From a virus (taxonomy: Duplodnaviria > Caudoviricetes): a stretch of DNA of 53,988 nt. The position numbers and the translations under genes were made by a program. Position 1 is the first letter of the stretch. The number at the start of each line of letters is the position of its first letter. This document shows positions 1-53,988 of this stretch, one piece after another. The DNA lies in IMG/VR virus record IMGVR_UViG_3300037502_002706, positions 1 through 53,988 of that record, one strand, 5' to 3'. Under the pieces are notes generated by a model. It was not told the origin of the DNA, ran no database searches, and saw only the letters and a program-made list of their open reading frames with translations.

Positions 1-560
1 TCAAGGTATATGCGTTGCGTTCCTAAATCAGAAGCAAAATTTAATTGCGTATCGGTAGACTTGCTGCCAGAACCAAGGTTGGCGTTACCAGTCGTCGCAA
101 AATTAGTCCCATCAAACGTCAGCGCACTCCCGCTCGTCGCCACCTTACTGCCGTTGAGGTACAGGACGCCGTTGGCGGTGCCGCCGGAGAGGGTGAGGTC
201 GGAGGACAGCGTTAGCGCCGCTGCGCCAATAGTGCCCGTCAGCGTCGGGCTGGCCGACAGCACGTTGTTGCCCGTGCCGGTGTTGGTCACCGAGACCACC
301 GCCTTGCTCGCGTTCAAGGCCAGCGCGGTTGAGGCCGTCAGCGCCGACAGCGTGGTGGTGCCTGCCACCGTGAGGGCCGAAGGGTTGGTGCCCAGTTCCA
401 CCACGGAGCCGCCCGAGTCCTTGGTGAACAGGCGCTTGTCGGCGGTGTTGACGGCCAACTCCGCGCCGTTGGCGCTGTTGGTCAGATTGCCCGCGCTGGG
501 CAGGCTGGTGGCAGTGTTGCTCGCGTAGAGCAGGATGGGGGTGAAGCCGGATTGTGCCAT
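1..560 (-). CDS. Tail fibre-like protein, N-terminal part (runs off the left end)
   Basis: Not in the ORF track. ATG at 560 reads MAQSGFTPILLYASNTATSLPSAGNLTNSANGAELAVNTADKRLFTKD, open to the window edge. GELAVNTADxxLF-type fibre N-terminal motif, T/G/S/A-rich. Confidence 0.8.
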   Translation of the reverse strand, partial: MAQSGFTPILLYASNTATSLPSAGNLTNSANGAELAVNTADKRLFTKDSGGSVVELGTNPSALTVAGTTTLSALTASTALALNASKAVVSVTNTGTGNNVLSASPTLTGTIGAAALTLSSDLTLSGGTANGVLYLNGSKVATSGSALTFDGTNFATTGNANLGSGSKSTDTQLNFASDLGTQRIYL

Positions 561-16990: not shown

Positions 16991-18566
16991 ACGGGTTGCT
17001 CCTTTCACGGGTGGGGGCGCGCCTAGGCGCATCGTCCACGTCGCGCGCCTGCGGTAGCGTGAACCAGCCTTCGTTCTTCAGGAATATAACCGCCTGCGTG
17101 AAGCAGTCCACGTATTCGTCGTGCTCGGCGGCGGGGAACTTGGCGAGCTGCTTCATGAACGGTTGCGCCCAGCTGGCGGGTTGGCCCGGGTTGGCGGCGG
17201 ACTCAGGCACCCACAGCAGCCCCAGCTCAAGAGTGGGGGCGGCCTGGTGGGCGCGTGATACTTTGTCCGCCTGGCCAGGATTGTACCCCACCGCGGGCAC
17301 CCGGGCAAGCCGCAGGTCCTGCAGCAACGATTGCCCGCTCGCCTTCGCCTCCACCAGCACGCGGTCGGGCCGGCGGGGCTTGACGGGTGGGCCGCGGCGC
17401 GGCTGCTTGTCCCCTCCGTACTCGGTGCGCCAGTCGTCCACCACGCGCTTGCGCAGCTCGGGGTAGCTGAGGTGCTCGTCCCACGCGTCGAGCAGCAGCG
17501 CGTGCCGCTCGCCCTCGTACGTGAACACGCCCCACACCTCGCAGCCGGTGGGGTCGTTCTGGGTCTTCTCGCTGAACGCGGTGTCGTAGCTCTGCAGCAC
17601 GTACTCCAGCGGCGGCAGCCCCCGCTCGGCCACGGGCCACAGGCGGAAGTGCTTGGTTTTGAGAATGCCGCCCTCGGCCGGGGTCGGGTCCTGCTGTAGC
17701 TGGCCCGCGGTGCCGTAGGTGCCGAGCAGCTGCTTCAGCTCGGTGATTTCCTTCGGCCCGAACCGCTCGGGGCAAATCAGCTCGCCCGGCTCCTTGCGCG
17801 GGTCGTAGGGGCCGAGCACAGTCCGCCGGCGCACGCCGTCCCACTCGGCCGGAATCATCAGGTGCTCCCACCCGCCGATGTCTTCAAGAATGTGTCCGCT
17901 GATGTCTTTCTCGTGCAGACGCTGCATGATTGTGACCATCGCGTCGCGCTTGGGGTCGTTCAGCCGCGTCGACCACACCACGTCAAACCACTCCAGCGCG
18001 CTCTCGCGGATGAGGTCGCTCTGCGCCTCCTGTGCGCTGTGGGGGTCGTCCAGCAGCAACCGCGAGCCGCCCTCGCCCGTGGCCGTGCCACCCACCGAGG
18101 TCGCGATGCGGTAGCCGGTGCGGTCGTTCTCGAAGCGCTGCTTGGCGTTCTGGTCGCCGGCGAGCGCAAACAGGTGCCCCCAGCGCTCCTGGTACCAGGG
18201 CGACTGCACCAACCGCCGCGCCTTCAAGTTGTCGCGGATGCTGAGGTTGCTGCTGTACGAGGCGCAGAGGTACTTGTGCGCCGGGTCGGTGAGCCACTCC
18301 CACATCGGCCACATCACCGAGACGATCGTCGACTTGCTGTGCCGCGGGGGAATGTTGATTAGCAGCTTGCGCAGCTCGCCCGCGGTTATGGCCTCCAGGT
18401 GCTCACATATTTCCCGTATGTGCCAGCTCGGTATGAACGGCACCCCCGGCTCCACCGTGGGCCACGCCTGGCGCACGAACTCGTACAGGTTGGCCCCCGC
18501 GGCCCGGCGCTCGCGCTCCCGCCGCACCATGTCCAGCAGCGCCGCGGGGCTCAGCGGGGCGTTCAT
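16980..18566 (-). CDS. terL: Terminase large subunit
   Basis: Walker A INIPPRHSKST, Walker B LLLDDPH, IMQRLH, nuclease QSYDTA and HDEYVDCFTQA. Confidence 0.95.
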   Translation of the reverse strand: MNAPLSPAALLDMVRRERERRAAGANLYEFVRQAWPTVEPGVPFIPSWHIREICEHLEAITAGELRKLLINIPPRHSKSTIVSVMWPMWEWLTDPAHKYLCASYSSNLSIRDNLKARRLVQSPWYQERWGHLFALAGDQNAKQRFENDRTGYRIATSVGGTATGEGGSRLLLDDPHSAQEAQSDLIRESALEWFDVVWSTRLNDPKRDAMVTIMQRLHEKDISGHILEDIGGWEHLMIPAEWDGVRRRTVLGPYDPRKEPGELICPERFGPKEITELKQLLGTYGTAGQLQQDPTPAEGGILKTKHFRLWPVAERGLPPLEYVLQSYDTAFSEKTQNDPTGCEVWGVFTYEGERHALLLDAWDEHLSYPELRKRVVDDWRTEYGGDKQPRRGPPVKPRRPDRVLVEAKASGQSLLQDLRLARVPAVGYNPGQADKVSRAHQAAPTLELGLLWVPESAANPGQPASWAQPFMKQLAKFPAAEHDEYVDCFTQAVIFLKNEGWFTLPQARDVDDAPRRAPTRERSNPYAA

Positions 18567-18910
18567 GGCTCCTTGACGAACGTGCCGTCGGGCATGAGCC
18601 GCCCGCGCCGGTCCTTGATCTGCGCATACGCCCCCACCAGGCACTGCGTCACGTCCAGGTCGCGCAGCGCGCAGTAGTTAATCAGGCACACCAGCACATC
18701 GCCCACCGCGTCGGCGGTGGCCTCGCGGTCGCGCTTGCCCTCGGCGTCGCACAGCTCGCCCACCTCGGACACGAGCTTGAGCAGCTGGGAGGCCGGAGCC
18801 GCGTGCGGAATGATGCCTCGGGCCTCGGCCCAGCGGATGACGTGCAGCTCGGCCTCGCGGAACGTGTACATGCGCAGCGCGCGCATTGCCTCGTCGGTTT
18901 GTTGCGTCAT
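18563..18910 (-). CDS. mazG: MazG-like NTP pyrophosphohydrolase
   Basis: WAEARGI..QLLKLVSEVGEL...DAVGDVLV...AY.QIKDRRG...GTFVKE. Confidence 0.85.
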   Translation of the reverse strand: MTQQTDEAMRALRMYTFREAELHVIRWAEARGIIPHAAPASQLLKLVSEVGELCDAEGKRDREATADAVGDVLVCLINYCALRDLDVTQCLVGAYAQIKDRRGRLMPDGTFVKEP

Positions 18911-25192: not shown

Positions 25193-26741
25193 GCGTGGCG
25201 TCCTCCTCAAAGTGTTCGGCCACCACGTTCCAGTATCGCCCCTGGCGGCGCACCAGCGCCCCCGCGGGCAGCCGCGCCCCGCGCAGCTGCCAAGTGACGG
25301 CGCGCGCCGGAGCCGGCAAGTTTACGGCCAGCCGGCGCTGCCTGAAAAACGCAGCCGCGGCGGAGTCGGGCTGCTGGGTGTTGATGAACCGCGAGGCGTC
25401 GATGCGGGCGCCTTCGCGCGTGGTGCAGGCGTACTGCACGAGCAGCACCGGGTGCGGCCCCCGCCGCGTGACCAGCGCCACCGCCGACACCGCATGCACC
25501 GCCACCGGCAGCTCGGCGCCGTCGGCCGCGGCGGTGCCGGTCATGGGGTCAATGGGCGTCAGCGTGCGCACCCCGGGCAACACCCGCCGCTCGCGGCGCA
25601 CGTAGGGGCGCCGGGGCTCGGCCGCGGGTAGCTGCTCGAGCGCGCCGCCGGGCCCCTGCCGGTAGTAGGTGTCGTACATGTCCACCCCGCCCAGCCGCTG
25701 CAGGTTGCCCACGTAGTCGAGAACGAGGCAGTTCTTCTTGCCCTCGGCCAGGCGCGTGCCCCGCCCCTGCATCTGCACCCACAGCGACGAGGACAGCGTG
25801 GGCCGCAGGCAGGCGATGCAGTCCAGCGCGGGCAGGTCGAACCCCGTGGTGAGCATGTCCACCGAGCACAACACCCGGAGCCGCCCCGCGGCAAACCGCC
25901 CGAGCACGTCGTCGCGCAGCGCCTGCGACGCCCCACCGGTGAGCACCTCCGCCGACCAGCCCGCCTCGCGGGTGATGAGGTCCGCCGCGCGGCGCGCCGC
26001 AGCCACCGTGGGGCAGTAGACCGCAACGTGCCGCCGCGCGCCGGCCAGCCCGGGCAGCGAGCGTGCCACCGCGGCGAGCCACTTTTCGGTTTGCAGCCGG
26101 GCCACGGCGGCCTGCGCAAAGTCCCCACCCTGCAACTCCACCGCCTCAACGTCCAGCTGCGTCTCGGTGTCCACCCCCACCAGCGGGCTGAGGTAGCCCT
26201 CGGCCACCGCCCGGGGCACGTTGTAGGTGTACGCCAGCGTGTCGAACCAGTACTGCGCGCCCGCACCGTAGATGAGCCCATTGTCCATGCGCCACGGCGT
26301 AGCGGTCATAGCCAGGCGCCGAGCCTGCGGGTGCCGCGCGAGCAGCCCCGCGTACATGCCCGGCTCGCCCTCGCGGTGGGGCACGCGGTGCGCCTCGTCA
26401 ATGATGATGAGCTGCGGCGGGGGCATGCCCACCTGCGCGCGTATCATCGTTTGCAGCGAGCCGAACGTGACCTCGCCCTCGCGCTCCCGGCGGTTGAGCC
26501 CCGCGCACACCACCGCCGGCCGGCGGCCGGTGTGGCGCTCGTAGGTGTCGGCGTTCTGCTGCACCAGCTGCTGCACGTGAGTGAGTACCCACACCCCGGC
26601 GCTGCGCGCCTGGTGCGCTAGCTCGGCCATAATGAGCGACTTGCCGGTGCCGGTGGCCAGCGCGAGCACCGGGTTTGCGCCCTCGGCGAGCGCGGCCTGC
26701 GCGGCGTGCACCGCCTCAAGCTGGTACGGTCGGAGTTGCAT
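25176..26741 (-). CDS. Superfamily 2 DEAH-box helicase
   Basis: LRPYQ, ATGTGKS, DEAH, TATP, LTTGFD, QMQGRGTR. Confidence 0.92.
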   Translation of the reverse strand: MQLRPYQLEAVHAAQAALAEGANPVLALATGTGKSLIMAELAHQARSAGVWVLTHVQQLVQQNADTYERHTGRRPAVVCAGLNRREREGEVTFGSLQTMIRAQVGMPPPQLIIIDEAHRVPHREGEPGMYAGLLARHPQARRLAMTATPWRMDNGLIYGAGAQYWFDTLAYTYNVPRAVAEGYLSPLVGVDTETQLDVEAVELQGGDFAQAAVARLQTEKWLAAVARSLPGLAGARRHVAVYCPTVAAARRAADLITREAGWSAEVLTGGASQALRDDVLGRFAAGRLRVLCSVDMLTTGFDLPALDCIACLRPTLSSSLWVQMQGRGTRLAEGKKNCLVLDYVGNLQRLGGVDMYDTYYRQGPGGALEQLPAAEPRRPYVRRERRVLPGVRTLTPIDPMTGTAAADGAELPVAVHAVSAVALVTRRGPHPVLLVQYACTTREGARIDASRFINTQQPDSAAAAFFRQRRLAVNLPAPARAVTWQLRGARLPAGALVRRQGRYWNVVAEHFEEDATHGDNE

Positions 26742-28325: not shown

Positions 28326-28421
28326 ATGCACAACGTACCGCTCCGCCCCGCTGACGTGCTCTTCGCCGTCGCGTTCGGTTTTGCCCTCGGGCTGCTCGTC
28401 GCTGCGGGGGTGCCCGCATGA
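28326..28421 (+). CDS. Small membrane peptide (31 aa)
   Basis: GAGGAG RBS, DVLFAVAFGFALGLLVAAG. Confidence 0.55.
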   Translation: MHNVPLRPADVLFAVAFGFALGLLVAAGVPA

Positions 28422-28702
28422 GCGCCGGCCACGTCGCCGTGTTTGACAGCCACGTTGACGGCATACCCTGCCGGGTGGGGGTGCTCAGCTACCTCAACGT
28501 GCCGGGCAGCTTCAGCTTTAACGCGCCGAGCGACATCGACTACTACGGCTACTTTGAGTGCGAGTGGGAGGTGCTTGACCGGCGCGGCCGGCCCGCCGCC
28601 TGGCTCGAGCGCAAACTGCGCAGCCGTGACCGCGAACGCATCGAGTGCGAGGTGCGCGAGCACTTTGACCACCTGCGCGACAGCGCAGATTGCGACTACT
28701 GA
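28418..28702 (+). CDS. Hypothetical phage protein
   Basis: GIPC.V.V...SDIDYYGY.E.EWEVLDRRGRPAAWLERK. Confidence 0.75.
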   Translation: MSAGHVAVFDSHVDGIPCRVGVLSYLNVPGSFSFNAPSDIDYYGYFECEWEVLDRRGRPAAWLERKLRSRDRERIECEVREHFDHLRDSADCDY

Positions 28703-28727: not shown

Positions 28728-29177
28728 ATGATAGACTCCGCCATCAACTGGAGCGCGATGACCATGCCGCAGCTGGTCGCGTTCTACAACCGACACGCCG
28801 AAAAAGCGGTGCGCCGGTTTGCCGACCGCTCCACCGCCGAGCGCCGCTGCCGCGAGGTGCTCACCGCGCTGCGTGTGCCTTCGGCCAAGATGCTGAAGCA
28901 GAAGCTCAGCGCCACCGAGTCCGCGGCCGGCGCGGCGGCCCCCCGCCCCGCCATGCGCGCCTCGCTCGCGCTGGACCGCACACTGTTGTGCGTTGAGACG
29001 GGCGAGACCTGGAAGAACGCATTCCGCATGTGGCGGGCGCACCCTGACTGGCTCACCGGGGCGCAGGTCGACCGGCTGACGCTCACGCTGTACGCGGCTG
29101 CCAAGCGCGGCGAGGCCGCCGCAGTGACAATCAATGGGCGCGCTTTCCGCCTGCTCAACGTGGCGGGGGCAGCATGA
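28728..29177 (+). CDS. Hypothetical protein, possibly DNA-binding
   Basis: AAAGGAG RBS, LVAFYN...VRRFADRSTAERR motif, coupled to the PLP gene. Confidence 0.65.
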   Translation: MIDSAINWSAMTMPQLVAFYNRHAEKAVRRFADRSTAERRCREVLTALRVPSAKMLKQKLSATESAAGAAAPRPAMRASLALDRTLLCVETGETWKNAFRMWRAHPDWLTGAQVDRLTLTLYAAAKRGEAAAVTINGRAFRLLNVAGAA

Positions 29178-30148
29178 GCGGCACGGTCTTTACCGAACTG
29201 TCGCTAGACCGCGGCCGCGTCCGCTGGGAGCAGCACCTGGGCACGCTCACCCCGTGGGAGCTGCGCGGCGGGGTGTGGTTCAAGCGCGATGACTACTTCG
29301 CTCCGCTGGGCTACGGCGGCCCGAATGGCAGCAAGATGCGCCAGCTGATCTGGTACGTCAACCGGTTCCGCCCGGGCAAGTCGCACATCGTCACCGGGGC
29401 GAGCATTCAGAGCCCCCAGCTCAGCATGTCGGCGATTGTCGGCGCGCACTACGGGCTGCCCGCCCGGCAGGTCGTCTACAGCAAGCCCGACACCGTGCTC
29501 CGGCACGAGAACCCGCGCATAGCCTACGGGTTCGGCGCCGGGTTCGAGTACGCGAGCGGGCCGTACAACCCGATCATCCAGCGCCGGGTGACGGACCTCA
29601 CGCTGCCCGATTCGCTAGTCGTCGAGTACGGCATCACCGTGCCTCACGAGCGGTACGACGCCGACACGGTGCGCAAGTTCCACGAGGTCGGCGCCCACCA
29701 GCTGCAGAACCTGCCCCCCGAGGTGACTAAGCTGATTGTGCCCGCCGGCTCGTGCAACTCGCTGTGCAGCATACTGCTCGGGCTATCGCGTGACCCGAAG
29801 AACGTGAGCGAGCTGCTCACCATCGGCATCGGCCCCGACAAGCTGCCCTGGGTGCGCGCTCGGCTACGGCACATCGGCGTCGACCCCGAGCGGCTGCCGT
29901 TCCAGTGGGACCACCGCAGCCTGCACACCACCGGCTACAGCAAGTACAGCGACAAGTTCACTGGCGAGCAGTACGAGGGCATCGCCTTCCACCCCACCTA
30001 CGAGGCGAAGATGTGGCGCTGGCTGCGCCAGCACGACCCGCTCGGCAACGTGCTACCGCGTAACGGCTCGGCCGGGTTCTGGATCGTCGGCTCGGCCCCC
30101 AACCCCAAGGTGATTGAACCGTTCTACACACGGAAGGAACAACCATGA
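29174..30148 (+). CDS. PLP-dependent enzyme (fold type II), putative amino-acid-DNA decarboxylase
   Basis: TPWE..GVWFKRDD...GGPNGSKMRQ (PLP lysine), VPAGSCNS, FHPTYEAK, FWIVG. Adjacent to the DNA-modification genes. Confidence 0.8.
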   Translation: MSGTVFTELSLDRGRVRWEQHLGTLTPWELRGGVWFKRDDYFAPLGYGGPNGSKMRQLIWYVNRFRPGKSHIVTGASIQSPQLSMSAIVGAHYGLPARQVVYSKPDTVLRHENPRIAYGFGAGFEYASGPYNPIIQRRVTDLTLPDSLVVEYGITVPHERYDADTVRKFHEVGAHQLQNLPPEVTKLIVPAGSCNSLCSILLGLSRDPKNVSELLTIGIGPDKLPWVRARLRHIGVDPERLPFQWDHRSLHTTGYSKYSDKFTGEQYEGIAFHPTYEAKMWRWLRQHDPLGNVLPRNGSAGFWIVGSAPNPKVIEPFYTRKEQP

Positions 30149-30330
30149 CCGTAGTTTCGACCTGGCCGCTCACCCCCGCCGAGCGCGAGCTCCGCGACGA
30201 GGTGGCGCTGCGGCTTTATGTGCAGATGCATAACAACCCCGAGACAACCTATGCCGAGGACGCTGAGGATGCATTCAGCGCCGCCAACGCATTCATCAAA
30301 GTGAGGCGCGAATGGAACAACGTGTTTTGA
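30145..30330 (+). CDS. Small hypothetical protein
   Basis: LRDEVAL...AEDAFSAANAFIKVR, overlaps both neighbours. Confidence 0.6.
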   Translation: MTVVSTWPLTPAERELRDEVALRLYVQMHNNPETTYAEDAEDAFSAANAFIKVRREWNNVF

Positions 30331-31328
30331 CCGATTACCGAGCGCCCGAGCACCGGCGCGAGTACTTTCACTCGCTGTACCGGCTGAACCTGCAACACGG
30401 GGTCATGCCCGGATTGGTCTACCTGTACATGCCTGCGCTGGCGCAGGAGCACGGCTGGGGTGCGGAGCAGCGGCTGTGGTTTGCCTTTCTGAACGGCATG
30501 ACGCAGAACCCCATCACCTCGCTGCGGTTGATGCACCGGCTGCCCGCGGTGCCCCCAGCGGGCGCGCCGCTCACGGGGTTTAGCGAGTGGTTCAACGCGG
30601 AGTGGGACACGCTCCAGTTTGACACCGACCGCCGGTACCAGAAGCGCGACACCGTCGACTCGATCAAGGCCTACGCCGCCGCGGTGGCCCGCCACGGCAC
30701 GCAGGAGGCAATGCTCACCGGCAAGACCTACGCCGAGCTCTGGGCGCTCGTGCGCGACGAGTACCGCTCGTTCGGCCGGCTGTCGGCGTTCAGCTACCTG
30801 GAGTACGTCTACTTGAACGGGTTCGGCGCCGACTGCGATGACTTGCTCTTCCACGACAAGAGCGGCAGCAAGTCGCACCGCAACGGTATGCTGTTCCTGC
30901 TCGGGCAGGACGCGCTGGTCTGGGACCGGCGGCAGCCCGAATCGCACAGCGGCGACTACCCCGAGTTCAAGAAGATGTGCCGCTGGCTCAACGACCAGGC
31001 CGAGGCGTACCTGCGGGAGTTCTACACCACCCGCTACCCGCACCACACGGTGAGCAAGTTCACGCTCGAGAGCAACCTGTGCACGTTCAAGAATCACTTC
31101 TTCGGTCGGCGCTACCCGGGCGTGTACGCCGACATGGCCTGGGAGCGGATACTGTGGGCAGAGGCGCGAGGCCAGGCCGAGTTCGCCGCGCCGTTCCGCC
31201 GCCTGCGCGAGGAGCTGCTGCCCGAGTGGCTGCGCGCCGAGTGCGAACACCAACCACTGACGCTGGTACAGAAGGCCGCGCTGTTCCCGCAGACCGGCTA
31301 CCCGTACCGGGGGGAGCACTTCCTGTGA
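30312..31328 (+). CDS. Amino acid:DNA transferase (aGPT-Pplase2 family)
   Basis: DTDRRYQK, FGRLSAFSYLEY (HhH-like), ESNLCTFK...RRYPGVY, plus cluster context. Confidence 0.8.
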   Translation: MEQRVLTDYRAPEHRREYFHSLYRLNLQHGVMPGLVYLYMPALAQEHGWGAEQRLWFAFLNGMTQNPITSLRLMHRLPAVPPAGAPLTGFSEWFNAEWDTLQFDTDRRYQKRDTVDSIKAYAAAVARHGTQEAMLTGKTYAELWALVRDEYRSFGRLSAFSYLEYVYLNGFGADCDDLLFHDKSGSKSHRNGMLFLLGQDALVWDRRQPESHSGDYPEFKKMCRWLNDQAEAYLREFYTTRYPHHTVSKFTLESNLCTFKNHFFGRRYPGVYADMAWERILWAEARGQAEFAAPFRRLREELLPEWLRAECEHQPLTLVQKAALFPQTGYPYRGEHFL

Positions 31329-31906
31329 GGCACCAAGTCATCAACATCCGCGGCTGCAACGGCAGCGGCAAGACTACGATCGTGCGGCGATTCCTCGAGC
31401 GGTTGCCCGCGGTGCCGCTGGGCGGCCGGCCCGAGCGCCCGCTGGGCTACGCGGTGACCGCCAACGCCTGGGGCATCGCCGCTCCGGTGTACGTTGTGGG
31501 CTCGTACGAGAACGCCTGCGGCGGCACCGACGGCATCAAGACTCAGGACGAGATTGTTGACCGTGTGCGCCGCGCCCATGCCTGCGGGCATGTGCTGGTG
31601 GAGGGGCTGCTTATGAGCAAGAGCAGCGACGGGGGCACCTGCGCCCCGGCGTTGCGCGAGCTGGGGGGCATATTCGCCTTCCTGGACACGCCGTGGGAGG
31701 TCTGCCTCGAGCGGGTGCTCGGCCGGCGCGCCGCCGCAGGTAATGACAAGCCGTTCGACCCCGACAAGACCATGCGCACCGCGTACGACCAGTGCCACCG
31801 CTCGGCCGAGCTGCTCACTGCGGCGGGCGGCTACGACGTGCGCCGCCTGCCCTGGCAGGATCCCGTCACGCGGGTGGTCGAATGGCTGCGGGAGGCCGAG
31901 CAATGA
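31325..31906 (+). CDS. P-loop nucleotide kinase (putative hmdUMP kinase)
   Basis: INIRGCNGSGKTT, CGGTD, VLVEG, LDTP.E.CL.RV..RR. GTG start overlaps the upstream stop. Confidence 0.8.
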   Translation: MRHQVINIRGCNGSGKTTIVRRFLERLPAVPLGGRPERPLGYAVTANAWGIAAPVYVVGSYENACGGTDGIKTQDEIVDRVRRAHACGHVLVEGLLMSKSSDGGTCAPALRELGGIFAFLDTPWEVCLERVLGRRAAAGNDKPFDPDKTMRTAYDQCHRSAELLTAAGGYDVRRLPWQDPVTRVVEWLREAEQ

Positions 31907-32817
31907 TCGGCAGCTGCCCTTTCAAAATGCCCGAGCAGGCCGACGCGGTGCGCTCGCTGGACACGTTCTTGTACTTCGTTTGGGAGCGCGAGGCCATACG
32001 CCTCGCTCGCGAGAACGACATCCCCCGCGAGCGCTGGACCGCGGACCCGGTTCTCGGCGCGCTGAAGTTCTGCAACATCCGCCGCCGGGACGACCGCGTC
32101 ACGCAGTGGGTCGTGCGGCACGTCATTCGGCCGCACTACCAGCGCGCCGACTTATGGTTCACGCTGCTCGCGGTGCGGCTCATCAACTGGCCGCCCACGC
32201 TGGCGGAGCTGCTGGAGCGCGGGGTGTTGCCCTGCAGGCCGGCGGATTTTGATGCCGACCGGTTCGTGCGTACGATTGAGGACCGCAAACGCCAGCAGCC
32301 CAAGGTGTACTCCAGCGCGTACATGGTGTACCCGACGGGCGCCGTCGGCCGTCTCAAGTCCGAGTCGCTCGCCCGTGTAATTCTGCCCGCGGCGGCGGGT
32401 GTAGCGAGCGAGGTGCACGCTGCGCTCCGCGAGCCGAGCGTAGAGCGGTTCACCGTAGCCCTGGCCAGCGCCTATGGCGTGAGCACGTTTATGTCTGGGC
32501 AGGTGGCGGCGGACCTCACCTACTCGCTCGGCCAGCTGGGCCGCGCTACCGACCTCTACACCTGGGCGCCGGTGGGCCCGGGCAGCAGCCGAGGGCTAAA
32601 CTACCTGCGCGGGCGGCCGCTGGGCGCGCAGTGGGCGCAGGCGGACTTCAACAGCGAGCTCATCGAGCTGCGGTCGGCCATCGTGCGCGAGCTACACATT
32701 ATGGACCTCACGCTGCACGACGTGCAAAACTGCCTCTGCGAGTATAGCAAATACGCGCGGGCCATGCTGGGCGACGGCGCGGCGCGCAACCTTTACCACC
32801 CTGAGACGGAGTTCTAA
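31903..32817 (+). CDS. 5-hmdU DNA kinase (aGPT-Pplase1 family)
   Basis: FVWEREAIR...WTADPVL...KFCNIRRRDDRVTQW, GPGSSRGL, DVQNCLCEYSKY. Confidence 0.85.
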   Translation: MIGSCPFKMPEQADAVRSLDTFLYFVWEREAIRLARENDIPRERWTADPVLGALKFCNIRRRDDRVTQWVVRHVIRPHYQRADLWFTLLAVRLINWPPTLAELLERGVLPCRPADFDADRFVRTIEDRKRQQPKVYSSAYMVYPTGAVGRLKSESLARVILPAAAGVASEVHAALREPSVERFTVALASAYGVSTFMSGQVAADLTYSLGQLGRATDLYTWAPVGPGSSRGLNYLRGRPLGAQWAQADFNSELIELRSAIVRELHIMDLTLHDVQNCLCEYSKYARAMLGDGAARNLYHPETEF

Positions 32818-32820
32818 GCC

Positions 32821-33831
32821 ATGGAATTCAAAGTGCGTAACGTCAACCAGGCCTTCGGCGAGATATTCTGGAAGTTCAAAACGCTGAACTTGCAGCCCGA
32901 ACCGACGCGTAACGGCCCCGCGCTTGTGTACCCGGAGCTGGTGACCACGGTGTACGCCTGCCCGGCGGAGCGGGTGTTGTTTCACGCGGGGCGGGACTGC
33001 AACCCGGTGTTTCACCTGCTGGAGGCGGTGTGGATGCTCGCCGGACGCAACGATGTCGCATTCCTCAAGCAGTTCAACCATCGCATGGGTGACTTCAGCG
33101 ACGACGGCAAGACCTTTAACGCGGCCTACGGCCACCGTTGGCGCTCGCACTTCGGCCGCGACCAGCTGGACGAAGTGATAAGGCTGCTGCGGCGAGACCC
33201 CACCACGCGCCAGGCGGTGGTGCAGATGTGGGACGCGGCGGACCTCAGCCGCAAGACCCGCGACAAGGCCTGCAACACGCAAGTCGTCTTCGACATCCGG
33301 CAGGACCGGTTGAACATGACGGTATTCAACCGCAGCAACGACCTGTGGTGGGGCGCCTACGGCGCCAACGCGGTGCACTTTAGCATGCTGCAGGAGCTGG
33401 TCGCCGCGGCCACCGGCCACCGCATCGGCGTGTACCGCCAGGTTTCGAACAACTTGCACCTGTACACCGAGCTGTACGACGCCGCGCGCTACCTGCACTC
33501 GCCCCCCGCCGCCGACGAGTACGATCACTACTCCGCCGGGGCGGTGCGTCCCGCGCCGCTAATGCTCGGGGCGGAGTACCGGTTGTTCCTCACCGAGTGT
33601 GAGATGTTCTGCGAGGACCCATTTAACGAGCGGCTGCGGTATGCGAACCCGTTCTTCGAGCACGTGGCACGGCCCGCGGCGCTGGTGTCGCGCACTCGCC
33701 GCACGCACTCGGGCGACGGCCGCAGCTACGCCGCCAAGATTCGCGCCGAGGACTGGCGCCGGGCGGTGCTCGAGTGGATCGACCGGCGTGAAAACGCCCG
33801 CCGCTTGAGCGAGGAGGCAGTGAAAAAATAA
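32821..33831 (+). CDS. Thymidylate synthase homologue, putative dUMP hydroxymethylase
   Basis: AYGHRW, DQL, TRQAV..MWD, catalytic DKACN, RSNDLWWGAYGAN (Asn indicates a dUMP substrate), NLHLY. Confidence 0.85.
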   Translation: MEFKVRNVNQAFGEIFWKFKTLNLQPEPTRNGPALVYPELVTTVYACPAERVLFHAGRDCNPVFHLLEAVWMLAGRNDVAFLKQFNHRMGDFSDDGKTFNAAYGHRWRSHFGRDQLDEVIRLLRRDPTTRQAVVQMWDAADLSRKTRDKACNTQVVFDIRQDRLNMTVFNRSNDLWWGAYGANAVHFSMLQELVAAATGHRIGVYRQVSNNLHLYTELYDAARYLHSPPAADEYDHYSAGAVRPAPLMLGAEYRLFLTECEMFCEDPFNERLRYANPFFEHVARPAALVSRTRRTHSGDGRSYAAKIRAEDWRRAVLEWIDRRENARRLSEEAVKK

Positions 33832-33834
33832 CGC

Positions 33835-33898
33835 TTGCCTTCGGCGCGCGGGCGCCCCTAAAATTGCCCGCATAACTTCTAACTGGAGAACTCCGACT
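33835..33898 (+). promoter_or_regulatory. Promoter TTGCCT-18-TAAAAT with AACT-rich leader
   Basis: Intergenic. Leader ATAACTTCTAACTGGAGAACT resembles the early leaders. Confidence 0.55.
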
Positions 33899-34396
33899 GT
33901 GAAAAAATCACTTGAATTCATACTTGGTGGTGCGGAGGTCGTGCGCTACCACACCGTGCACACACTGCAGCGCGAGACCGTGGGGCACCACTCGCACGGG
34001 GTGGCCTGCTTGGCGTTGGTGCTGGACGAACACGCCAGCCGCGAGCTGCTTATGGCGGCGCTGATGCATGACCTGGCGGAGCAGCACACCGGCGACATCC
34101 CCTCCCCCGCCAAGCGCGAGTACGGCATCGGTGACCAAGTGGACCGGCTTGAGCGCCGGCTCATGGAGGAGGCCGGGCTGCGCTATCCGCGGCTAACCGC
34201 CGATGACGCCCGCACCCTCAAGCTGGCGGACATAGCGCATGGGGCGCTTTTCTGCGTGCGCGAGATGAGCCTGGGCAACCGGCGGCTCCGCGCCGTGTAC
34301 GACCGCTACATGAGCTACGCGCAGCAGATGTTGCTCAAGGGGGTGGAGTGGGACCTGTTCAACCTCATCGGGGAGATGCGCCGTGAGTGCGAATGA
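33899..34396 (+). CDS. HD-domain 5'-deoxynucleotidase-like hydrolase
   Basis: RYH...ETVGHHS, AALMHDLAE..TGDIPSP.K, LKLAD (YfbR-like). Confidence 0.85.
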   Translation: MKKSLEFILGGAEVVRYHTVHTLQRETVGHHSHGVACLALVLDEHASRELLMAALMHDLAEQHTGDIPSPAKREYGIGDQVDRLERRLMEEAGLRYPRLTADDARTLKLADIAHGALFCVREMSLGNRRLRAVYDRYMSYAQQMLLKGVEWDLFNLIGEMRRECE

Positions 34397-34640
34397 GAAG
34401 CAAGTGGCCGGGCAGCACTACCGCGCCGCAATACAACACTGGGACTACGTGGTGTCGAACGACCTGGACTACTTCCAGGGGCAGATCACAAAGTACGTGA
34501 CGCGGTGGAAAAAGAAGAACGGCCTCACTGACCTGCTGAAGGCGCAGCACTTCCTCGAGAAGTACATCGAGGTCGCGCGCGCCGCGGCCGAGGACGACGG
34601 CAGCGCCCCCAGCGCGGGCTACGTGAACCAAGACCGATGA
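34383..34640 (+). CDS. DUF3310 family protein (T7 gp1.7-like nucleotide kinase domain)
   Basis: QVAGQHY...GQITKYVTRWKKKNG..DL.KA.HFLE. Confidence 0.8.
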   Translation: MSANEKQVAGQHYRAAIQHWDYVVSNDLDYFQGQITKYVTRWKKKNGLTDLLKAQHFLEKYIEVARAAAEDDGSAPSAGYVNQDR

Positions 34641-36487
34641 GCACCTGGGTGTTTGACACCGAAACGCTACCCAATCGCACGCTGTTCTGCGCCCTGAACG
34701 CGGACAGCGGCGAGTGGTTCGACCTCTGGCGTCACGAGCCGGAAGCGCCGGCGCGGCTGCGCGAGTTCTTGCAGCAGCCGGACGCCACGTTCGTCGGGTT
34801 CAACAGCCGAGAGTTTGACAACGTGGTGGTTGCGGCGTTCTGCGCCGGCCGTTCCGAGTCGGAGATAAAGCGCATCGCCGACGCGATCATCAACCAGCGG
34901 CTCGCCCCTTGGGCGGCGCTGCGCCAGTTCATGCTGCCGGAGCTGAAGTTCGACTGGATCGACCTCATCGAGGTCGCGCCTTCGTTCGTCGGGCTGAAGG
35001 CCTACGGCGCGCGCATGCACATGCCCCAGCTGCAGGACATGCCGATCGAGCACGACCAGCCGCTGCCCCCGGAGCGTGAGGTGGAGCTGCTCGGCTACTG
35101 CCATAACGACGTGGAGACCACCGCGGAGCTGCTGCGGCGGCTGGACGCGGAGCTTATGCTCCGGGTGGAGATGAGCCGCCGGTACGGCGTCGACATGCGC
35201 AGCAAGTCCGACGCGCAGATGGCCGAGCAGGCCTACGTCACGAGCATGGGCCTGCGCCGGCAGGACCAGCCTATACCGCCCACGGTGCGCTACCGGCCGC
35301 CGGAGTTCCTGCGGTTTGCGGACCCCACGCTACAAGCGCTGCTCGAGCGCGTATCCGAGCACACCTTTGACGTGAACAGCAAGACCGGGCACGTGGTGCT
35401 GCCGGACTTTCTGGGCGGGGTGACGGTGCGGTTCGGCGCCGGGGAGTACCAGCTCGGCGTGGGCGGCATTCACAGCGTGCACGACCGCCAGGTGTGCTAT
35501 GTCGCCGGGGAGGACGTCATATGCGACCTGGACGCGGCGTCGTTCTATCCGAGCATCATTCTTGAGTGCGGGTTCGTGCCTGCGGCGCTCGGCCAGCCGT
35601 TCATCGACGAGTACCGCAAGATTTACGAGCGCCGCCTAGCCGCCAAGCGTTCGGGCGACAAGGTGACCGACGCCACGCTGAAGATCGCACTCAACGGCAC
35701 ATTCGGCAAGCTCGCCAGCCGGTACTCGGTGTTGTACTCGCCGGACCTGATGCTCGCGGTGACGCTCACCGGGCAGTTCACGCTGCTGATGCTAATCGAG
35801 CGGCTCGAGGCCGCCGGAGCCACCACCCTGTCAGCCAACACCGACGGCATCGCTGTGCGCTATTCTCGGCAACTGGAGAGCGAGATTCAGCGCGTGGTGG
35901 CTGAGTTCGGTGCGCTGTCGCGGTTTTCGTTCGAGTTCACGCCGTATCGCGTGTTGGCGATGAAGGACGTTAACAACTACATCGCCGTCAAGCCCGACCG
36001 CTCGCTCAAGGTCAAGGGCATCTATGCTCCGTTGTCGCTCAAGAAGAACCCCACCGCGCAGGTCGCGGCCGATGCGGTAGGGCAGTGGCTCGCGCACGGC
36101 ACCCCGCTGGAGCAGACAGTTCGCGCGGCGCCGTTCTGCGACTTCATCAGTGCGCGCAACGTCACCGGCGGCGGCGAGCAGCTCGGCCAGCGGCTGGGTC
36201 GCGTGGTGCGCTGGTATCAGAGCAACGACCCCGCGCTGGAGCCCATCCGGTACAGCAAGAACGGCAACAAAGTGCCCAAGACCGACGGCGCCCGCGCCTG
36301 CATGCAGCTGCCCGACAAGGTGGCGCACCCGGCCGACTTGGACTACGAATGGTATCGCCGCGAGGCGGTGAAGATCGCCGTCGCGGTCGGCTGCGAGCGT
36401 TACCTGAGCGCCGAGGAGCTCGCGCTCATCGCCCCACCACCCAAGCAACGCAATCAACGCAACAAGGCTGAAAATGGAACCCGGTAA
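34637..36487 (+). CDS. DNA polymerase, family B-like, with 3'-5' exonuclease
   Basis: VFDTET, GFNS.EFD, YCHNDV; DLDAASFYPSI, KIALNGTFGK, SANTDG. Confidence 0.9.
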   Translation: MSTWVFDTETLPNRTLFCALNADSGEWFDLWRHEPEAPARLREFLQQPDATFVGFNSREFDNVVVAAFCAGRSESEIKRIADAIINQRLAPWAALRQFMLPELKFDWIDLIEVAPSFVGLKAYGARMHMPQLQDMPIEHDQPLPPEREVELLGYCHNDVETTAELLRRLDAELMLRVEMSRRYGVDMRSKSDAQMAEQAYVTSMGLRRQDQPIPPTVRYRPPEFLRFADPTLQALLERVSEHTFDVNSKTGHVVLPDFLGGVTVRFGAGEYQLGVGGIHSVHDRQVCYVAGEDVICDLDAASFYPSIILECGFVPAALGQPFIDEYRKIYERRLAAKRSGDKVTDATLKIALNGTFGKLASRYSVLYSPDLMLAVTLTGQFTLLMLIERLEAAGATTLSANTDGIAVRYSRQLESEIQRVVAEFGALSRFSFEFTPYRVLAMKDVNNYIAVKPDRSLKVKGIYAPLSLKKNPTAQVAADAVGQWLAHGTPLEQTVRAAPFCDFISARNVTGGGEQLGQRLGRVVRWYQSNDPALEPIRYSKNGNKVPKTDGARACMQLPDKVAHPADLDYEWYRREAVKIAVAVGCERYLSAEELALIAPPPKQRNQRNKAENGTR

Positions 36488-53667: not shown

Positions 53668-53988
53668 TCAGTTCTCGCTGCGAGTGGCGGTGCGGTCGGT
53701 AATGCGCTTCAGGTCTTCGCCGGAGAGCGCCTGCGCCGCCCGGTCAAACATCGCCTGCCACGTGCCGATGCGTTGATCGTTCTTGAGGAACGGCTGCGCC
53801 TCAAGCAGCGTGCCGTACAGCAGCAGGTCAGGCGCGTACCCGGTGAGCCAGTTGTCCTGGTACTCGTCGTCAAGGAACCGGGGCTGCTCGTAGTACAGGA
53901 TCTCCAGCGTGCTGGCGGCCACAGGCGTAGGCGCGAGCAGCCAGTGCTGGTAGTCGTAGTCGGCGTAGAACTCCGGCGCCGCGGTGGC
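53668..53988 (-). CDS. Putative head-tail adaptor protein, C-terminal part (enters from the right end)
   Basis: Frame is open to the window edge: PEFYADYDYQHWLLAPTP...NWLT.YAPDLLLYGTL.EAQPFLKND.RI..W. Confidence 0.65.
   Translation of the reverse strand, partial: ATAAPEFYADYDYQHWLLAPTPVAASTLEILYYEQPRFLDDEYQDNWLTGYAPDLLLYGTLLEAQPFLKNDQRIGTWQAMFDRAAQALSGEDLKRITDRTATRSEN

What the first reader, a model, noticed from the sequence alone, without database searches (positions are those of the whole stretch)
29174..34640. Thymidine-hypermodification cluster without a radical-SAM enzyme, in a podovirus-like genome
Seen: a tightly packed run of PLP enzyme, aGPT-Pplase2-type protein, P-loop kinase, aGPT-Pplase1-type protein, thymidylate synthase homologue with the dUMP-specifying Asn, HD hydrolase and DUF3310, directly before the polymerase. 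Established: in Pseudomonas phage M6 and Salmonella phage ViI, hmdU replaces T, is phosphorylated on DNA by the aGPT-Pplase1-family kinase, receives an amino acid from the aGPT-Pplase2 transferase and is then tailored. M6 uses glycine, a radical-SAM isomerase and a PLP decarboxylase (5-NedU). ViI uses serine and a PLP decarboxylase (5-NeOmdU). Inference: with a PLP enzyme but no radical-SAM, flavin or acetyltransferase gene in the window, the product may be 5-NeOmdU-like, or a new base if the transferase uses another amino acid. The characterised examples I know are sipho- and myoviruses, whereas this virion module is podovirus-like.
Basis: partly seen in the sequence, partly recalled or inferred. 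Interest (0 to 1): 0.85.

Follow-up and report, generated by a model that had tools for sequence, protein, structure and literature searches.

The report
Phage thymine hypermodification gene cassette
An uncultured phage carries an intact, tightly packed gene set for replacing thymine in its DNA with an amino-acid-derived base, assembled from parts known from two model phages, but the exact base cannot be read from sequence.

Summary
Window 29174-34640 (+) encodes, with 4-base start/stop overlaps, a PLP enzyme, an amino acid:DNA transferase (AADT, formerly aGPT-Pplase2), a P-loop 5-hmdU DNA kinase, the kinase-associated helical protein (aGPT-Pplase1), a thymidylate-synthase homologue with the catalytic Cys and the dUMP-type Asn, an HD hydrolase and DUF3310, directly before a family-B polymerase.

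The cassette is a mosaic. The PLP enzyme and AADT resemble Salmonella phage ViI gp226 and gp247 (36% and 26% identity). The kinase, helical protein, synthase, HD and DUF3310 resemble Pseudomonas phage M6 gp54, gp55, gp58, gp59 and gp61 (33-53%).

I found no radical-SAM, DAO-type flavin, GNAT, amidoligase or GATase gene in this 99%-complete record, and no radical-SAM gene in five complete relatives.

The eight genes are collinear in 46 of 50 IMG/VR loci long enough to show them. A natural PLP-AADT fusion protein exists elsewhere.

The most likely product is 5-NeOmdU, as in ViI. However, the AADT lies in an uncharacterised clade separate from ViI gp247, so another side-chain-linked amino acid, and hence a new base, is not excluded.

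Podovirus genomes carrying part of this gene set are already published, and this scan has met the same cassette on other DNA. I rate it a new variant of a known kind, of moderate interest.

The parts
28418..28702 (+). Small protein (94 aa) with a YuA_Gp49 domain. Possible accessory gene of the cassette.
   Evidence: PF20788, E 1e-18. tblastn finds it in 14 of 80 related loci. Function unknown.
28728..29177 (+). Conserved 149-aa protein of unknown function. Its stop overlaps the PLP gene's start.
   Evidence: ATG start preceded by a GGAG-type ribosome-binding site. Found in 62 of 80 related loci, directly upstream of the PLP gene in the examples printed. phrog_4730, E 6e-9. No Pfam hit. The Atlas gave only leads below 0.9.
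29174..30148 (+). PLP-dependent enzyme of the ViI gp226 type. Predicted decarboxylase of the amino-acid adduct on DNA.
   Evidence: 36% identical to ViI gp226 (E 7e-63), with K54 aligned to gp226 K92. K54 is invariant in 39 of 39 aligned homologues. A profile search of the PDB hits D-cysteine desulfhydrase (E 0.0035) with the Lys aligned. AlphaFold2 pLDDT 93.5. Foldseek top hits are D-Cys desulfhydrase and ACC deaminase, probability 1.0, TM 0.6-0.68. phrog_3650, E 2.9e-78.
30145..30330 (+). 61-aa ORF between the PLP and AADT genes. Doubtful gene.
   Evidence: No Pfam or PHROG hit. Found in only 1 of 80 related loci, L005.
30312..31328 (+). Amino acid:DNA transferase (AADT; formerly aGPT-Pplase2).
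   Evidence: PF18724, E 3.9e-15. 26% identical to ViI gp247 (E 3e-27) and 36.5% to Mycobacterium phage Hydro gp3. C257 aligns with the PaMx11 gp46 catalytic C247, and Y268 with YuA Y257. AlphaFold2 pLDDT 95.7. The only Foldseek PDB hits above probability 0.18 are PaMx11 gp46 entries 8z2m/8z2n (probability 1.0, TM 0.52-0.59).
31325..31906 (+). P-loop 5-hmdU DNA kinase (193 aa).
   Evidence: GTG start overlaps the AADT stop. Walker A motif G10-T17. 33% identical to M6 gp54 over 190 aa (E 9e-13). PF18748, E 4.9e-4, is below its cut-off. phrog_800, E 5e-17; this family carries the 'terminase small subunit' label that the M6 gp54 record also carries.
31903..32817 (+). Helical protein associated with the 5-hmdU DNA kinase (aGPT-Pplase1 / HMUDK_hel), 304 aa.
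   Evidence: PF18723, E 6.4e-38. 33% identical to M6 gp55 (E 1.4e-40). ATG start overlaps the kinase stop.
32821..33831 (+). Thymidylate-synthase-family enzyme. Predicted dUMP hydroxymethylase.
   Evidence: PF00303, E 4.3e-23. phrog_5131, E 7.8e-104. 46% identical to M6 gp58 (E 1e-90). C151 and N183 align with the ThyA Cys and Asn. The best PDB sequence hits are CMP 5-hydroxymethylases.
33899..34396 (+). HD-domain phosphohydrolase (YfbR-like 5'-deoxynucleotidase family).
   Evidence: PF12917, E 1.1e-11, and PF13023, E 2.6e-8. 35% identical to M6 gp59.
34383..34640 (+). DUF3310 protein.
   Evidence: PF11753, E 2.2e-6. phrog_5839, E 7e-27. 53% identical to M6 gp61.
34637..36487 (+). DNA polymerase, family B-like. 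It must accept 5-hmdUTP if the pathway runs.
   Evidence: phrog_1252, E 7.7e-157. Weak PF03175 and PF00136 hits. 39% identical to the polymerases of Vibrio phage LP.1 and Pseudomonas phage PaMx25. No BLAST hit to M6 gp62.
18563..18910 (-). MazG-like nucleotide pyrophosphohydrolase. Candidate dTTP/dUTP-clearing enzyme, distant from the cassette.
   Evidence: PF03819, E 3.5e-4, just below its cut-off. The assignment is inferred by analogy with the dTTPase/dUTPase of phage SH-Ab 15599 (PMC13458397, section 43).

Best explanation
This is a working thymidine-hypermodification cassette of the 5-hmdU type.

Inferred steps before replication:
- The thymidylate-synthase homologue makes 5-hmdUMP from dUMP.
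- The HD hydrolase, and perhaps the distant MazG-like protein, bias the nucleotide pools against dTTP.
- The phage family-B polymerase incorporates 5-hmdU in place of T.

Inferred steps on the DNA:
- The P-loop kinase phosphorylates the hydroxymethyl group to give 5-PmdU. The adjoining helical aGPT-Pplase1 protein probably assists it.
- The AADT attacks C6 with Cys257, expels phosphate and adds a free amino acid through that amino acid's side chain.
- The ViI gp226-type PLP enzyme forms a Schiff base with the free alpha-amine and removes CO2, leaving a primary-amine side chain.

The side-chain linkage follows from the gene content. There is no radical-SAM isomerase to unmask an amine, so an N-alpha-linked adduct would give the PLP enzyme nothing to bind.

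The most likely donor is serine. That gives O-serinyl-thymidine and then 5-(2-aminoethoxy)methyl-dU (5-NeOmdU), as in ViI.

I put about 0.85 on a working cassette of this type. The 0.5 below is for the serine / 5-NeOmdU outcome specifically.
For: Sequence and fold:
- Every enzyme is present, intact and translationally coupled.
- The catalytic or cofactor residues are in place: synthase C151 and N183, kinase Walker A, AADT C257 and Y268, invariant in 59 of 59 sequences, and PLP-enzyme K54, invariant in 39 of 39 sequences.
- The PLP enzyme is 36% identical over its whole length to ViI gp226. gp226 was shown in vitro to decarboxylate O-SerT (PMC8989533, passages).
- The PLP model has the fold-type-II PLP fold, pLDDT 93.5.
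- ViI gp247, the serine transferase, is the nearest characterised relative of the AADT (E 3e-27).
- The glycine enzymes M6 gp51 and PaMx11 gp46 give only E 0.006 and E 2. Their glycine-carboxylate Lys248 (PMC13458397, section 38) is Thr258 here.

Absences:
- No radical SAM, DAO, GNAT, amidoligase or GATase domain in the window.
- No radical SAM in five complete relatives.

Functional linkage:
- 46 of 50 related loci are collinear.
- The natural 730-aa fusion P0133 has an N-terminal part 40% identical to this PLP enzyme (E 6e-69) and a C-terminal part 44% identical to this AADT.
Against: - In the quick tree the AADT falls in a 43-row group with Mycobacterium phage Hydro gp3. ViI gp247 lies in a separate 26-row group with SH-aLRT 97. 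Serine specificity therefore does not transfer by orthology.
- Identity to gp247 is only 26%.
- Residues around the catalytic Cys differ between the two clades: window LCTFKNHFF-GRRYPGVY, ViI ACWLKKFFRL..NTRYIGW.
- Relatives of the Hydro type have no PLP gene beside them among the nine features shown. This AADT clade is therefore not always coupled to decarboxylation.
- Whether the synthase homologue adds hydroxymethyl rather than methyl cannot be read from sequence.
- No DNA chemistry, expression data or raw reads were available.
Confidence: 0.5

Rival explanations
1. Same pathway, different donor. The AADT of this clade attaches an amino acid other than serine through its side chain, for example threonine, homoserine, cysteine, or a basic amino acid through its distal amine. 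The PLP enzyme then decarboxylates it, giving a thymidine derivative not yet described.
For: - The AADT sits in an uncharacterised clade apart from ViI gp247.
- Residues next to the catalytic Cys differ from those of ViI.
- Two pocket residues are enough to switch donor in this family, and many SSN clusters are uncharacterised (PMC13458397, sections 33 and 38).
- Tyr268, which matches the carboxylate-binding Tyr of the glycine enzymes, is kept. This fits an amino-acid donor rather than a diamine donor.
Against: - The PLP partner is clearly of the gp226 type (36% identity), and gp226's known substrate is O-SerT.
- Serine is the simplest side-chain nucleophile that leaves a free alpha-amine.
- No extra tailoring gene suggests further chemistry.
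Confidence: 0.3
2. The PLP enzyme is not a decarboxylase here. As in its structural neighbours D-cysteine desulfhydrase and ACC deaminase, it carries out an elimination or replacement reaction, or it acts on a free metabolite. The final base would then be the amino-acid adduct itself or something else.
For: - The nearest solved folds are desulfhydrases and deaminases, not decarboxylases.
- In a minority of relatives the PLP gene is separated from the cluster, for example L007, L008 and L080.
Against: - ViI gp226 has the same fold template (1j0a) and is an experimentally shown decarboxylase of O-SerT in DNA (PMC8989533, passages).
- The window protein is 36% identical to it over its full length.
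- A PLP-AADT fusion exists.
- The two genes are adjacent in most loci.
Confidence: 0.08
3. The cassette does not change virion DNA. Either the synthase homologue makes dTMP, or the genes are relics.
For: Hydroxymethylase and methylase activity cannot be told apart from the residues checked. No chemical data exist for this phage.
Against: - All genes are intact and coupled.
- Catalytic residues are invariant across dozens of diverged homologues.
- Gene order is conserved in 46 of 50 loci at 37-92% protein identity.
- The synthase is 46% identical to that of M6, a phage with 5-hmdU-derived DNA (PMC8989533, passages).
- A 5-hmdU kinase and an AADT have no substrate without 5-hmdU.
Confidence: 0.05

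Closest known systems
Salmonella phage ViI (Ackermannviridae) 5-NeOmdU pathway: gp67/gp243 kinases, gp247 serine:DNA transferase, gp226 PLP decarboxylase
   Same: - The PLP enzyme is of the gp226 type: 36% identity, K54 aligned to K92, same fold.
- The AADT's nearest characterised relative is gp247.
- There is no radical-SAM step.
- The logic of a side-chain-linked amino acid followed by decarboxylation is the same.
   Different: - ViI is a 157-kb myovirus whose genes are scattered; gp226 lies about 9 kb from gp243-gp247. Here they form one coupled cassette in a 54-kb genome.
- The AADT is in another clade.
- The kinase, helical protein, synthase, HD and DUF3310 are of the M6 type, not the ViI type.
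- The window's PLP enzyme lacks a roughly 57-aa insert and the N-terminal extension of gp226.
Pseudomonas phage M6 (Yuavirus) 5-NedU cassette gp51-gp62
   Same: - The downstream gene order is the same: kinase, helical protein, synthase, HD, DUF3310-type protein, polymerase.
- Identities are 33-53%.
- The cassette sits directly before the polymerase gene.
   Different: - M6 has a glycine-type AADT with Lys248, a radical-SAM isomerase (gp53) and a distinct PLP enzyme (gp52). gp52 matches the window family over only 34 C-terminal columns, hhalign probability 14%.
- The M6 polymerase gives no BLAST hit to the window's polymerase.
- M6 is a siphovirus.
Pseudomonas phage PaMx11 5-AcNmdU cassette gp46-gp55
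   Same: - The same cassette plan: AADT, tailoring genes, kinase, helical protein, synthase, HD, then polymerase.
- The AADT fold matches the gp46 crystal structures 8z2m and 8z2n, with the catalytic Cys conserved.
   Different: The tailoring genes are a FAD lyase and an acetyltransferase; no such domains occur in the window. Its AADT is of the glycine type.
HTVC023P-type pelagiphage podoviruses with thymidylate synthase plus aGPT-Pplase1 near the polymerase (PMC9599517), and CRP-901-type roseophages
   Same: - A small tailed phage whose packaging and structural genes relate to CRP-901/902: TerL 45-46%, with a GroES-like gene and a Prim-Pol gene.
- The CRP-901/902 structural genes resemble those of HTVC023P/027P (PMC10149686, passages).
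- Hypermodification genes lie next to the polymerase.
   Different: - The pelagiphage passages I read report only a thymidylate synthase plus aGPT-Pplase1, with PolA; no kinase, AADT or PLP set is mentioned there.
- CRP-901 itself has no such cluster in its annotation.
Mycobacterium phages of the Hydro / Bane1 type (Coopervirus): ParB-like protein, oxidoreductase, AADT, kinase
   Same: These are the closest AADT among cultured phages: 38% by tblastn and 36.5% by BLASTP, in the same tree group.
   Different: - 5-hmdU there presumably comes from an oxidoreductase acting on DNA thymine, not from a dUMP hydroxymethylase.
- No PLP gene is annotated among the nine features shown.
- I know of no characterised product for these phages.

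Membership tests
5-hmdU-based thymidine hypermodification pathway (ViI / M6 / PaMx11 / PhiW-14 kind) | Thymidylate-synthase-family enzyme specific for dUMP (catalytic Cys, Asn at the base-specifying site) | tested here: met
   C151 and N183 align with the ThyA Cys and Asn, and N183 aligns with the Asp of CMP hydroxymethylase. 46% identical to M6 gp58.
5-hmdU-based thymidine hypermodification pathway (ViI / M6 / PaMx11 / PhiW-14 kind) | The synthase homologue transfers hydroxymethyl rather than methyl | not testable with these tools
   No sequence rule was applied. This is inferred only from homology and from the kinase and AADT needing 5-hmdU.
5-hmdU-based thymidine hypermodification pathway (ViI / M6 / PaMx11 / PhiW-14 kind) | P-loop 5-hmdU DNA kinase | tested here: met
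   33% identical to M6 gp54 (E 9e-13). Walker A is invariant. The Pfam PF18748 score of 20.1 is below its cut-off of 27, so family membership rests on BLAST and synteny.
5-hmdU-based thymidine hypermodification pathway (ViI / M6 / PaMx11 / PhiW-14 kind) | Amino acid:DNA transferase (PF18724) with the catalytic Cys and the gp46 fold | tested here: met
   PF18724 scores 56.6 bits against a cut-off of 26.2. C257 is invariant. Foldseek matches 8z2m and 8z2n with probability 1.0.
5-hmdU-based thymidine hypermodification pathway (ViI / M6 / PaMx11 / PhiW-14 kind) | Modified thymidine present in virion DNA | not testable with these tools
   All 21 listed sequencing runs are kept as Logan contigs; none is kept as raw reads. 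No isolate exists.
ViI-type 5-NeOmdU route | PLP decarboxylase of the gp226 family with the Schiff-base Lys | tested here: met
   36% identity, E 7e-63, with K54 aligned to K92. Fold confirmed. Decarboxylase activity itself was not tested.
ViI-type 5-NeOmdU route | Serine-specific AADT orthologous to gp247 | tested here: inconclusive
   gp247 is the nearest characterised relative (26% identity), but the window AADT lies in a different starred clade in the quick tree. Donor specificity cannot be tested here.
ViI-type 5-NeOmdU route | No radical-SAM isomerase | tested here: met
   PF04055 is absent from the window and from 5 of 5 complete relatives. The control search matched in 14 of 14 genomes.
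M6-type 5-NedU route | Radical-SAM glycinyl-thymine isomerase plus a glycine-type AADT (Lys248) | tested here: not met
   No PF04055. The Lys248 position is Thr258. M6 gp51 matches only at E 0.006.
PaMx11-type 5-AcNmdU route | FAD-dependent lyase and acetyltransferase | tested here: not met
   PF01266 and PF00583 are absent from all six frames of the window.
Podovirus-type virion | Short-tail gene set; no tape measure, tail tube or sheath | tested here: inconclusive
   No long-tail family appeared in PHROG or Pfam scans of 36 different structural-region ORFs, but many had no hit at all. One large protein matches a 'DNA ejection protein' family. The nearest cultured phages are CRP-901/902; the passages I read give no morphology for them.

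The most novel reading that the evidence does not exclude
The transferase of this abundant, uncultured phage group belongs to an uncharacterised AADT clade. It may attach a donor other than serine through the donor's side chain. The gp226-type enzyme would then decarboxylate it, so these phages would carry a thymidine derivative that has never been described chemically.
Probability: 0.3. Interest if true: 0.7.

Novelty: new variant of a known kind. Interest (0 to 1): 0.4.

Why it matters
- It would show that the ViI-type chemistry (amino acid on thymine, then decarboxylation to a primary amine) is not confined to large enterobacterial myoviruses. It would also be packaged as one portable operon in a widespread group of roughly 54-62 kb environmental phages.
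- That group is large: 86 IMG/VR relatives of the PLP gene, and 833 AADT cluster representatives with E <= 1e-5 in the 90%-identity protein collection, the best 120 of them at 64-95% identity.
- The cassette documents modular exchange of tailoring genes on a conserved kinase / synthase / polymerase backbone.
- The PLP-AADT gene pair, and its natural fusion, is a compact candidate tool for installing amine handles on DNA.
- If the donor is not serine, it points to a new DNA base.
- Hypermodified DNA of this kind can also bias library preparation and the restriction-based handling of environmental viromes.

Tried and rejected
- Pfam alone did not identify the PLP enzyme: no hit at E<=0.01 and PALP at E 0.072. 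The assignment rests on homology to gp226, a profile search and the fold.
- A single-sequence PDB search with the AADT gave only a chance nitroreductase hit at E 0.37. The fold search was needed.
- A complex prediction of the P-loop kinase with the helical aGPT-Pplase1 protein gave no verdict (score 0.00, mark 0.32). It counts neither for nor against binding.
The context is unknown.
- Sequencing runs: 21 rows, all kept as Logan contigs.
  - One run holds 0.99 of the sampled words and may be the source sample.
  - No RNA holder is listed.
  - Read laying was not used, because contigs cannot show base modification.
- The Atlas gave only weak leads for the 149-aa upstream ORF (scores up to 0.82).
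- The careful tree search did not finish in time. The tree cited is treekit's quick IQ-TREE tree with a midpoint root. It holds 74 rows: the window, four reference proteins, and 69 of the 150 listed representatives. I dropped the 81 representatives shorter than 280 aa or longer than 460 aa.
- I read passages of the Carin-5 paper (PMC12686479) and the T-dioxygenase paper (PMC13229309). They did not bear on this cassette.
Those depict metavirome clusters and may already show contigs of this type.
- Not-in-print check:
  - searched 'thymidine hypermodification' and 'aGPT-Pplase2': 62 papers hold a term and 25 were listed.
  - searched '5-NeOmdU', 'aminoethoxy' and 'O-serinylthymidine': 30 were listed and 8 of those hold '5-NeOmdU'.
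  - By title and abstract none describes this cassette in a small phage. I did not read them all.

Full report
WHAT THE WINDOW IS. The window is a whole IMG/VR virus record of 53,988 bases. CheckV rates it 99% complete, and IMG/VR classes its ends as linear with no end repeats. G+C is about 64-73%. It holds the following:
- A terminase: phrog_38, E 1e-86.
- A portal, a capsid/protease-type head protein, and several very large virion proteins.
- A Prim-Pol/helicase protein, a Sak4-type annealing protein, an SSB and a Cas4-type exonuclease.

The nearest cultured phages by TerL are Roseobacter phages CRP-902 and CRP-901 (45-46% identity). The CRP-901 annotation shows no hypermodification cluster.

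THE OBSERVATION. On the + strand, high-GC3 ORFs run without real gaps from about 28.4 kb to 39.8 kb.
- PLP enzyme: 29174-30148.
- A 61-aa ORF: 30145-30330.
- AADT: 30312-31328.
- P-loop kinase: the ORF listed as 30977-31906 most likely starts at GTG 31325, which overlaps the AADT stop, giving 193 aa.
- aGPT-Pplase1 protein: the ORF listed as 31792-32817 most likely starts at ATG 31903, which overlaps the kinase stop, giving 304 aa.
- Thymidylate-synthase homologue: 32821-33831.
- HD hydrolase: 33899-34396.
- DUF3310: 34383-34640.
- Polymerase: 34637-36487.

Pfam and PHROG scores are as follows:
- AADT: PF18724, E 3.9e-15.
- Helical protein: PF18723, E 6.4e-38.
- Synthase homologue: PF00303, E 4.3e-23, and phrog_5131, E 7.8e-104.
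- HD hydrolase: PF12917, E 1.1e-11.
- DUF3310: PF11753, E 2.2e-6.
- Polymerase: phrog_1252, E 7.7e-157.

The kinase reaches only E 4.9e-4 against PF18748, below its cut-off. It is nevertheless 33% identical over 190 residues to M6 gp54 (E 9e-13), and its Walker A motif is invariant among 31 homologues.

In the synthase homologue, C151 aligns with the ThyA catalytic Cys. N183 aligns with the Asn of the ThyA 'PFN' motif and with the Asp of CMP 5-hydroxymethylase. That this Asn/Asp position sets dUMP against dCMP specificity is recalled knowledge about ThyA and T4 dCMP hydroxymethylase.

THE PLP ENZYME. Pfam does not recognise this protein: there was no hit at E<=0.01 and only PALP at E 0.072. 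Other evidence identifies it.
- By tblastn it matches 348 phage records. All are below 60% identity, and by the names listed they are almost all ViI-like phages of enterobacteria and vibrios.
- Against ViI gp226 itself it is 36% identical (E 7e-63). K54 aligns with K92, the Lys proposed for the internal aldimine (PMC8989533, passages).
- K54 is invariant in an alignment of 39 homologues.
- A profile of that alignment hits D-cysteine desulfhydrase (E 0.0035) and ACC deaminase (E 0.048), with K54 aligned to a Lys in their GG-NK motif. That this is their PLP-binding Lys is recalled, not from a call.
- An AlphaFold2 model is confident: pLDDT 93.5, pTM 0.92.
- Foldseek places the model among D-cysteine desulfhydrases and ACC deaminases, including 1j0a, the template that the NAR authors reported for gp226. 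Probability is 1.0 and TM is 0.6-0.68.
- M6 gp52 gives no BLAST hit. By hhalign it gives only a 34-column C-terminal match, probability 14%.

THE TRANSFERASE.
- The AADT is 26% identical to ViI gp247, the serine:DNA transferase (E 3e-27).
- It is 36.5% identical to gp3 of Mycobacterium phage Hydro.
- It barely matches the glycine transferases: M6 gp51 at E 0.006 and PaMx11 gp46 at E 2.
- In an alignment with 69 library representatives, the motif around the catalytic Cys reads LCTFKNHFF-GRRYPGVY in the window and LCKWKSHM-NGHYP in M6.
- C257 matches PaMx11 Cys247, the proposed nucleophile (PMC11472151, passages).
- Y268 matches YuA Tyr257. Thr258 replaces YuA Lys248. Those two YuA residues hold the glycine carboxylate (PMC13458397, section 38).
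- C257 and Y268 are invariant in a 59-sequence alignment.
- The AlphaFold2 model has pLDDT 95.7. The only PDB chains it matches above probability 0.18 are the PaMx11 gp46 structures (probability 1.0, TM 0.52-0.59).

A quick IQ-TREE tree of 74 rows gives this picture:
- The window sits in a fully supported clade of 7 rows.
- That clade lies inside a 43-row group that also holds Hydro gp3.
- ViI gp247 lies in a separate 26-row group, SH-aLRT 97.
- The two glycine enzymes sit on a very long branch.

ViI gp247 is therefore the nearest characterised enzyme, but it is not an orthologue.

MOSAIC ORIGIN. BLASTP against the M6 and ViI proteins splits the cassette cleanly.
- The PLP enzyme and the AADT hit only ViI proteins.
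- The kinase, helical protein, synthase, HD and DUF3310 hit M6 gp54, gp55, gp58, gp59 and gp61 at 33%, 33%, 46%, 35% and 53% identity.
- They do so in the same order as in M6 and PaMx11.

At the DNA level, the synthase-to-DUF3310 stretch is about 70% identical to that of Yuavirus-type phages. The polymerase is a different type from that of M6. It is 39% identical to B-family-annotated polymerases of PaMx25-type and Vibrio phages.

ABSENCES.
- Six-frame searches of the window found no Radical_SAM, DAO, Acetyltransf_1, Amidoligase_2, GATase_6 or dCMP deaminase domain. The control search matched in 14 of 14 genomes for four of these families, in 12 of 14 for the deaminase, and in 1 of 14 for Amidoligase_2.
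- Five related records of 58.6-62.4 kb, each rated 100% complete, also lack Radical_SAM.
- Pfam scans of 20 further early-region ORFs found no tailoring enzyme.

RECURRENCE.
- The PLP protein has 86 relatives in IMG/VR. Eighty loci were kept, at 59-92% identity.
- Of the 50 loci with at least 6.5 kb downstream of the PLP gene, 46 have all eight genes collinear. The exceptions are L008, L052, L074 and L080.
- Median gaps between neighbouring genes are 2-191 bp.
- A minority of loci carry insertions between the PLP and AADT genes: a 248-aa protein, a MazG-like protein, and DHH/DHHA1 proteins. None is a radical-SAM, flavin or acetyl enzyme.
- The AADT has 833 relatives with E <= 1e-5 in the 90%-identity collection. 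The best 120 are 64-95% identical.
- In the 50%-identity library only 196 representatives reach E <= 0.001.
- One of those, P0133 (730 aa), is a fusion. Residues 1-329 are 40% identical to this PLP enzyme (E 6e-69). The C-terminal part is an ADDT domain, 44% identical to this AADT.
- Other fusions join ADDT to Tet_JBP, to P-loop kinases, or to HMUD2.

MECHANISM. The following steps have been shown for homologues (PMC8989533, passages):
- P-loop kinases phosphorylate 5-hmdU in DNA.
- AADTs displace the phosphate with a free amino acid.
- ViI gp226 decarboxylates O-SerT.
- M6 gp52 cannot act on N-alpha-GlyT until the radical-SAM enzyme frees a primary amine.

What I infer for this cassette:
- With a gp226-type PLP enzyme and no isomerase, the adduct must carry a free alpha-amine, so it must be linked through a side chain.
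- Serine is the only such donor shown so far. Its product would be 5-NeOmdU.

The role of the aGPT-Pplase1 protein is not established. In SP10 it is fused to the kinase (PMC5889632, Table 3 passage), which suggests an accessory role for the kinase. The HD and MazG-like proteins may clear dTMP/dTTP. That is argued only by analogy with the dTTPase/dUTPase of phage SH-Ab 15599 (PMC13458397, section 43).

COMPARISON AND NOVELTY.
- The kind of system is known.
- The NAR paper already states that metaviromes hold combinatorial mixes of radical-SAM, PLP and flavin genes with 5-HMUDK and aGPT-Pplase2, and that some may use O-SerT (PMC8989533, passages). I could not see its Figure 2 or its supplements.
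- HTVC023P-type podoviruses with a thymidylate synthase plus aGPT-Pplase1 are in print (PMC9599517).
- This scan has already noted the same cassette on other DNA. Two of those notes were followed up and judged to be a known kind of chemistry.
- What remains distinctive is the specific hybrid: a ViI-type PLP enzyme and an AADT of an uncharacterised clade, sitting on an M6-type backbone with a B-family polymerase. Also distinctive are its abundance and the open question of the donor.

VERDICT.
- I rate it a new variant of a known kind, interest 0.4.
- Probabilities: 0.5 for 5-NeOmdU, 0.3 for a new base from another donor.

Noticed in passing
L054, L055, L061, L062, L067, L068, L073 and L074 (for example L055:2916-3662); L060:3726-4493 carries a near-identical ORF: A sub-group of related contigs has an extra gene of about 248 aa between the PLP and AADT genes. 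It has no Pfam hit. The Atlas feature search points to class I SAM methyltransferase-like clusters (score 0.94, a lead only). If real, that sub-group could methylate the amine or the adduct and make a further-tailored base.
   Followed up: partly
P0133 (730 aa), from the representative library: A natural single-chain fusion of a gp226-type PLP enzyme and an ADDT domain. Other ADDT fusions join Tet_JBP (P0127, P0150), P-loop kinases (P0129, P0134) and HMUD2 (P0152, 1278 aa). One ADDT is interrupted by an intein with an HNH domain (P0140).
   Followed up: partly
window 18563-18910 (-): A MazG-like pyrophosphohydrolase gene lies between the small- and large-terminase genes. It is a candidate dTTP/dUTP-clearing enzyme for the 5-hmdU pathway, although it is 10 kb from the cassette.
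   Followed up: no
window 28728-29177 (+) and 28418-28702 (+): A conserved 149-aa protein of unknown function abuts the PLP gene and recurs in 62 of 80 loci. A YuA_Gp49-domain protein lies just upstream of it. The 149-aa protein has a short similarity to M6 gp49 (E 0.002). The cassette may therefore extend further upstream than the finding states.
   Followed up: partly
L007, L008 and L080: In a few relatives the PLP gene is detached from the rest of the cluster, which lies several kb upstream on the opposite strand.
   Followed up: no
related loci, kinase gene (table): Kinase identities to the window fall into two classes, about 66-87% and about 38-48%, while the neighbouring genes vary smoothly. 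This suggests allele swapping of the kinase within the group.
   Followed up: no
window 23054-25210 (-): A Prim-Pol + PriCT_2 + AAA_25 protein like the 'bifunctional primase-polymerase' of CRP-901 coexists here with a separate family-B polymerase. CRP-901-type phages are described as lacking a polymerase gene.
   Followed up: no
window 1-560 and 53668-53988 (-): Open reading frames run off both ends of the record on the minus strand. Their lengths do not join in frame (560 + 321 bases), so a little sequence may be missing at the ends despite the 99% completeness estimate.
   Followed up: no
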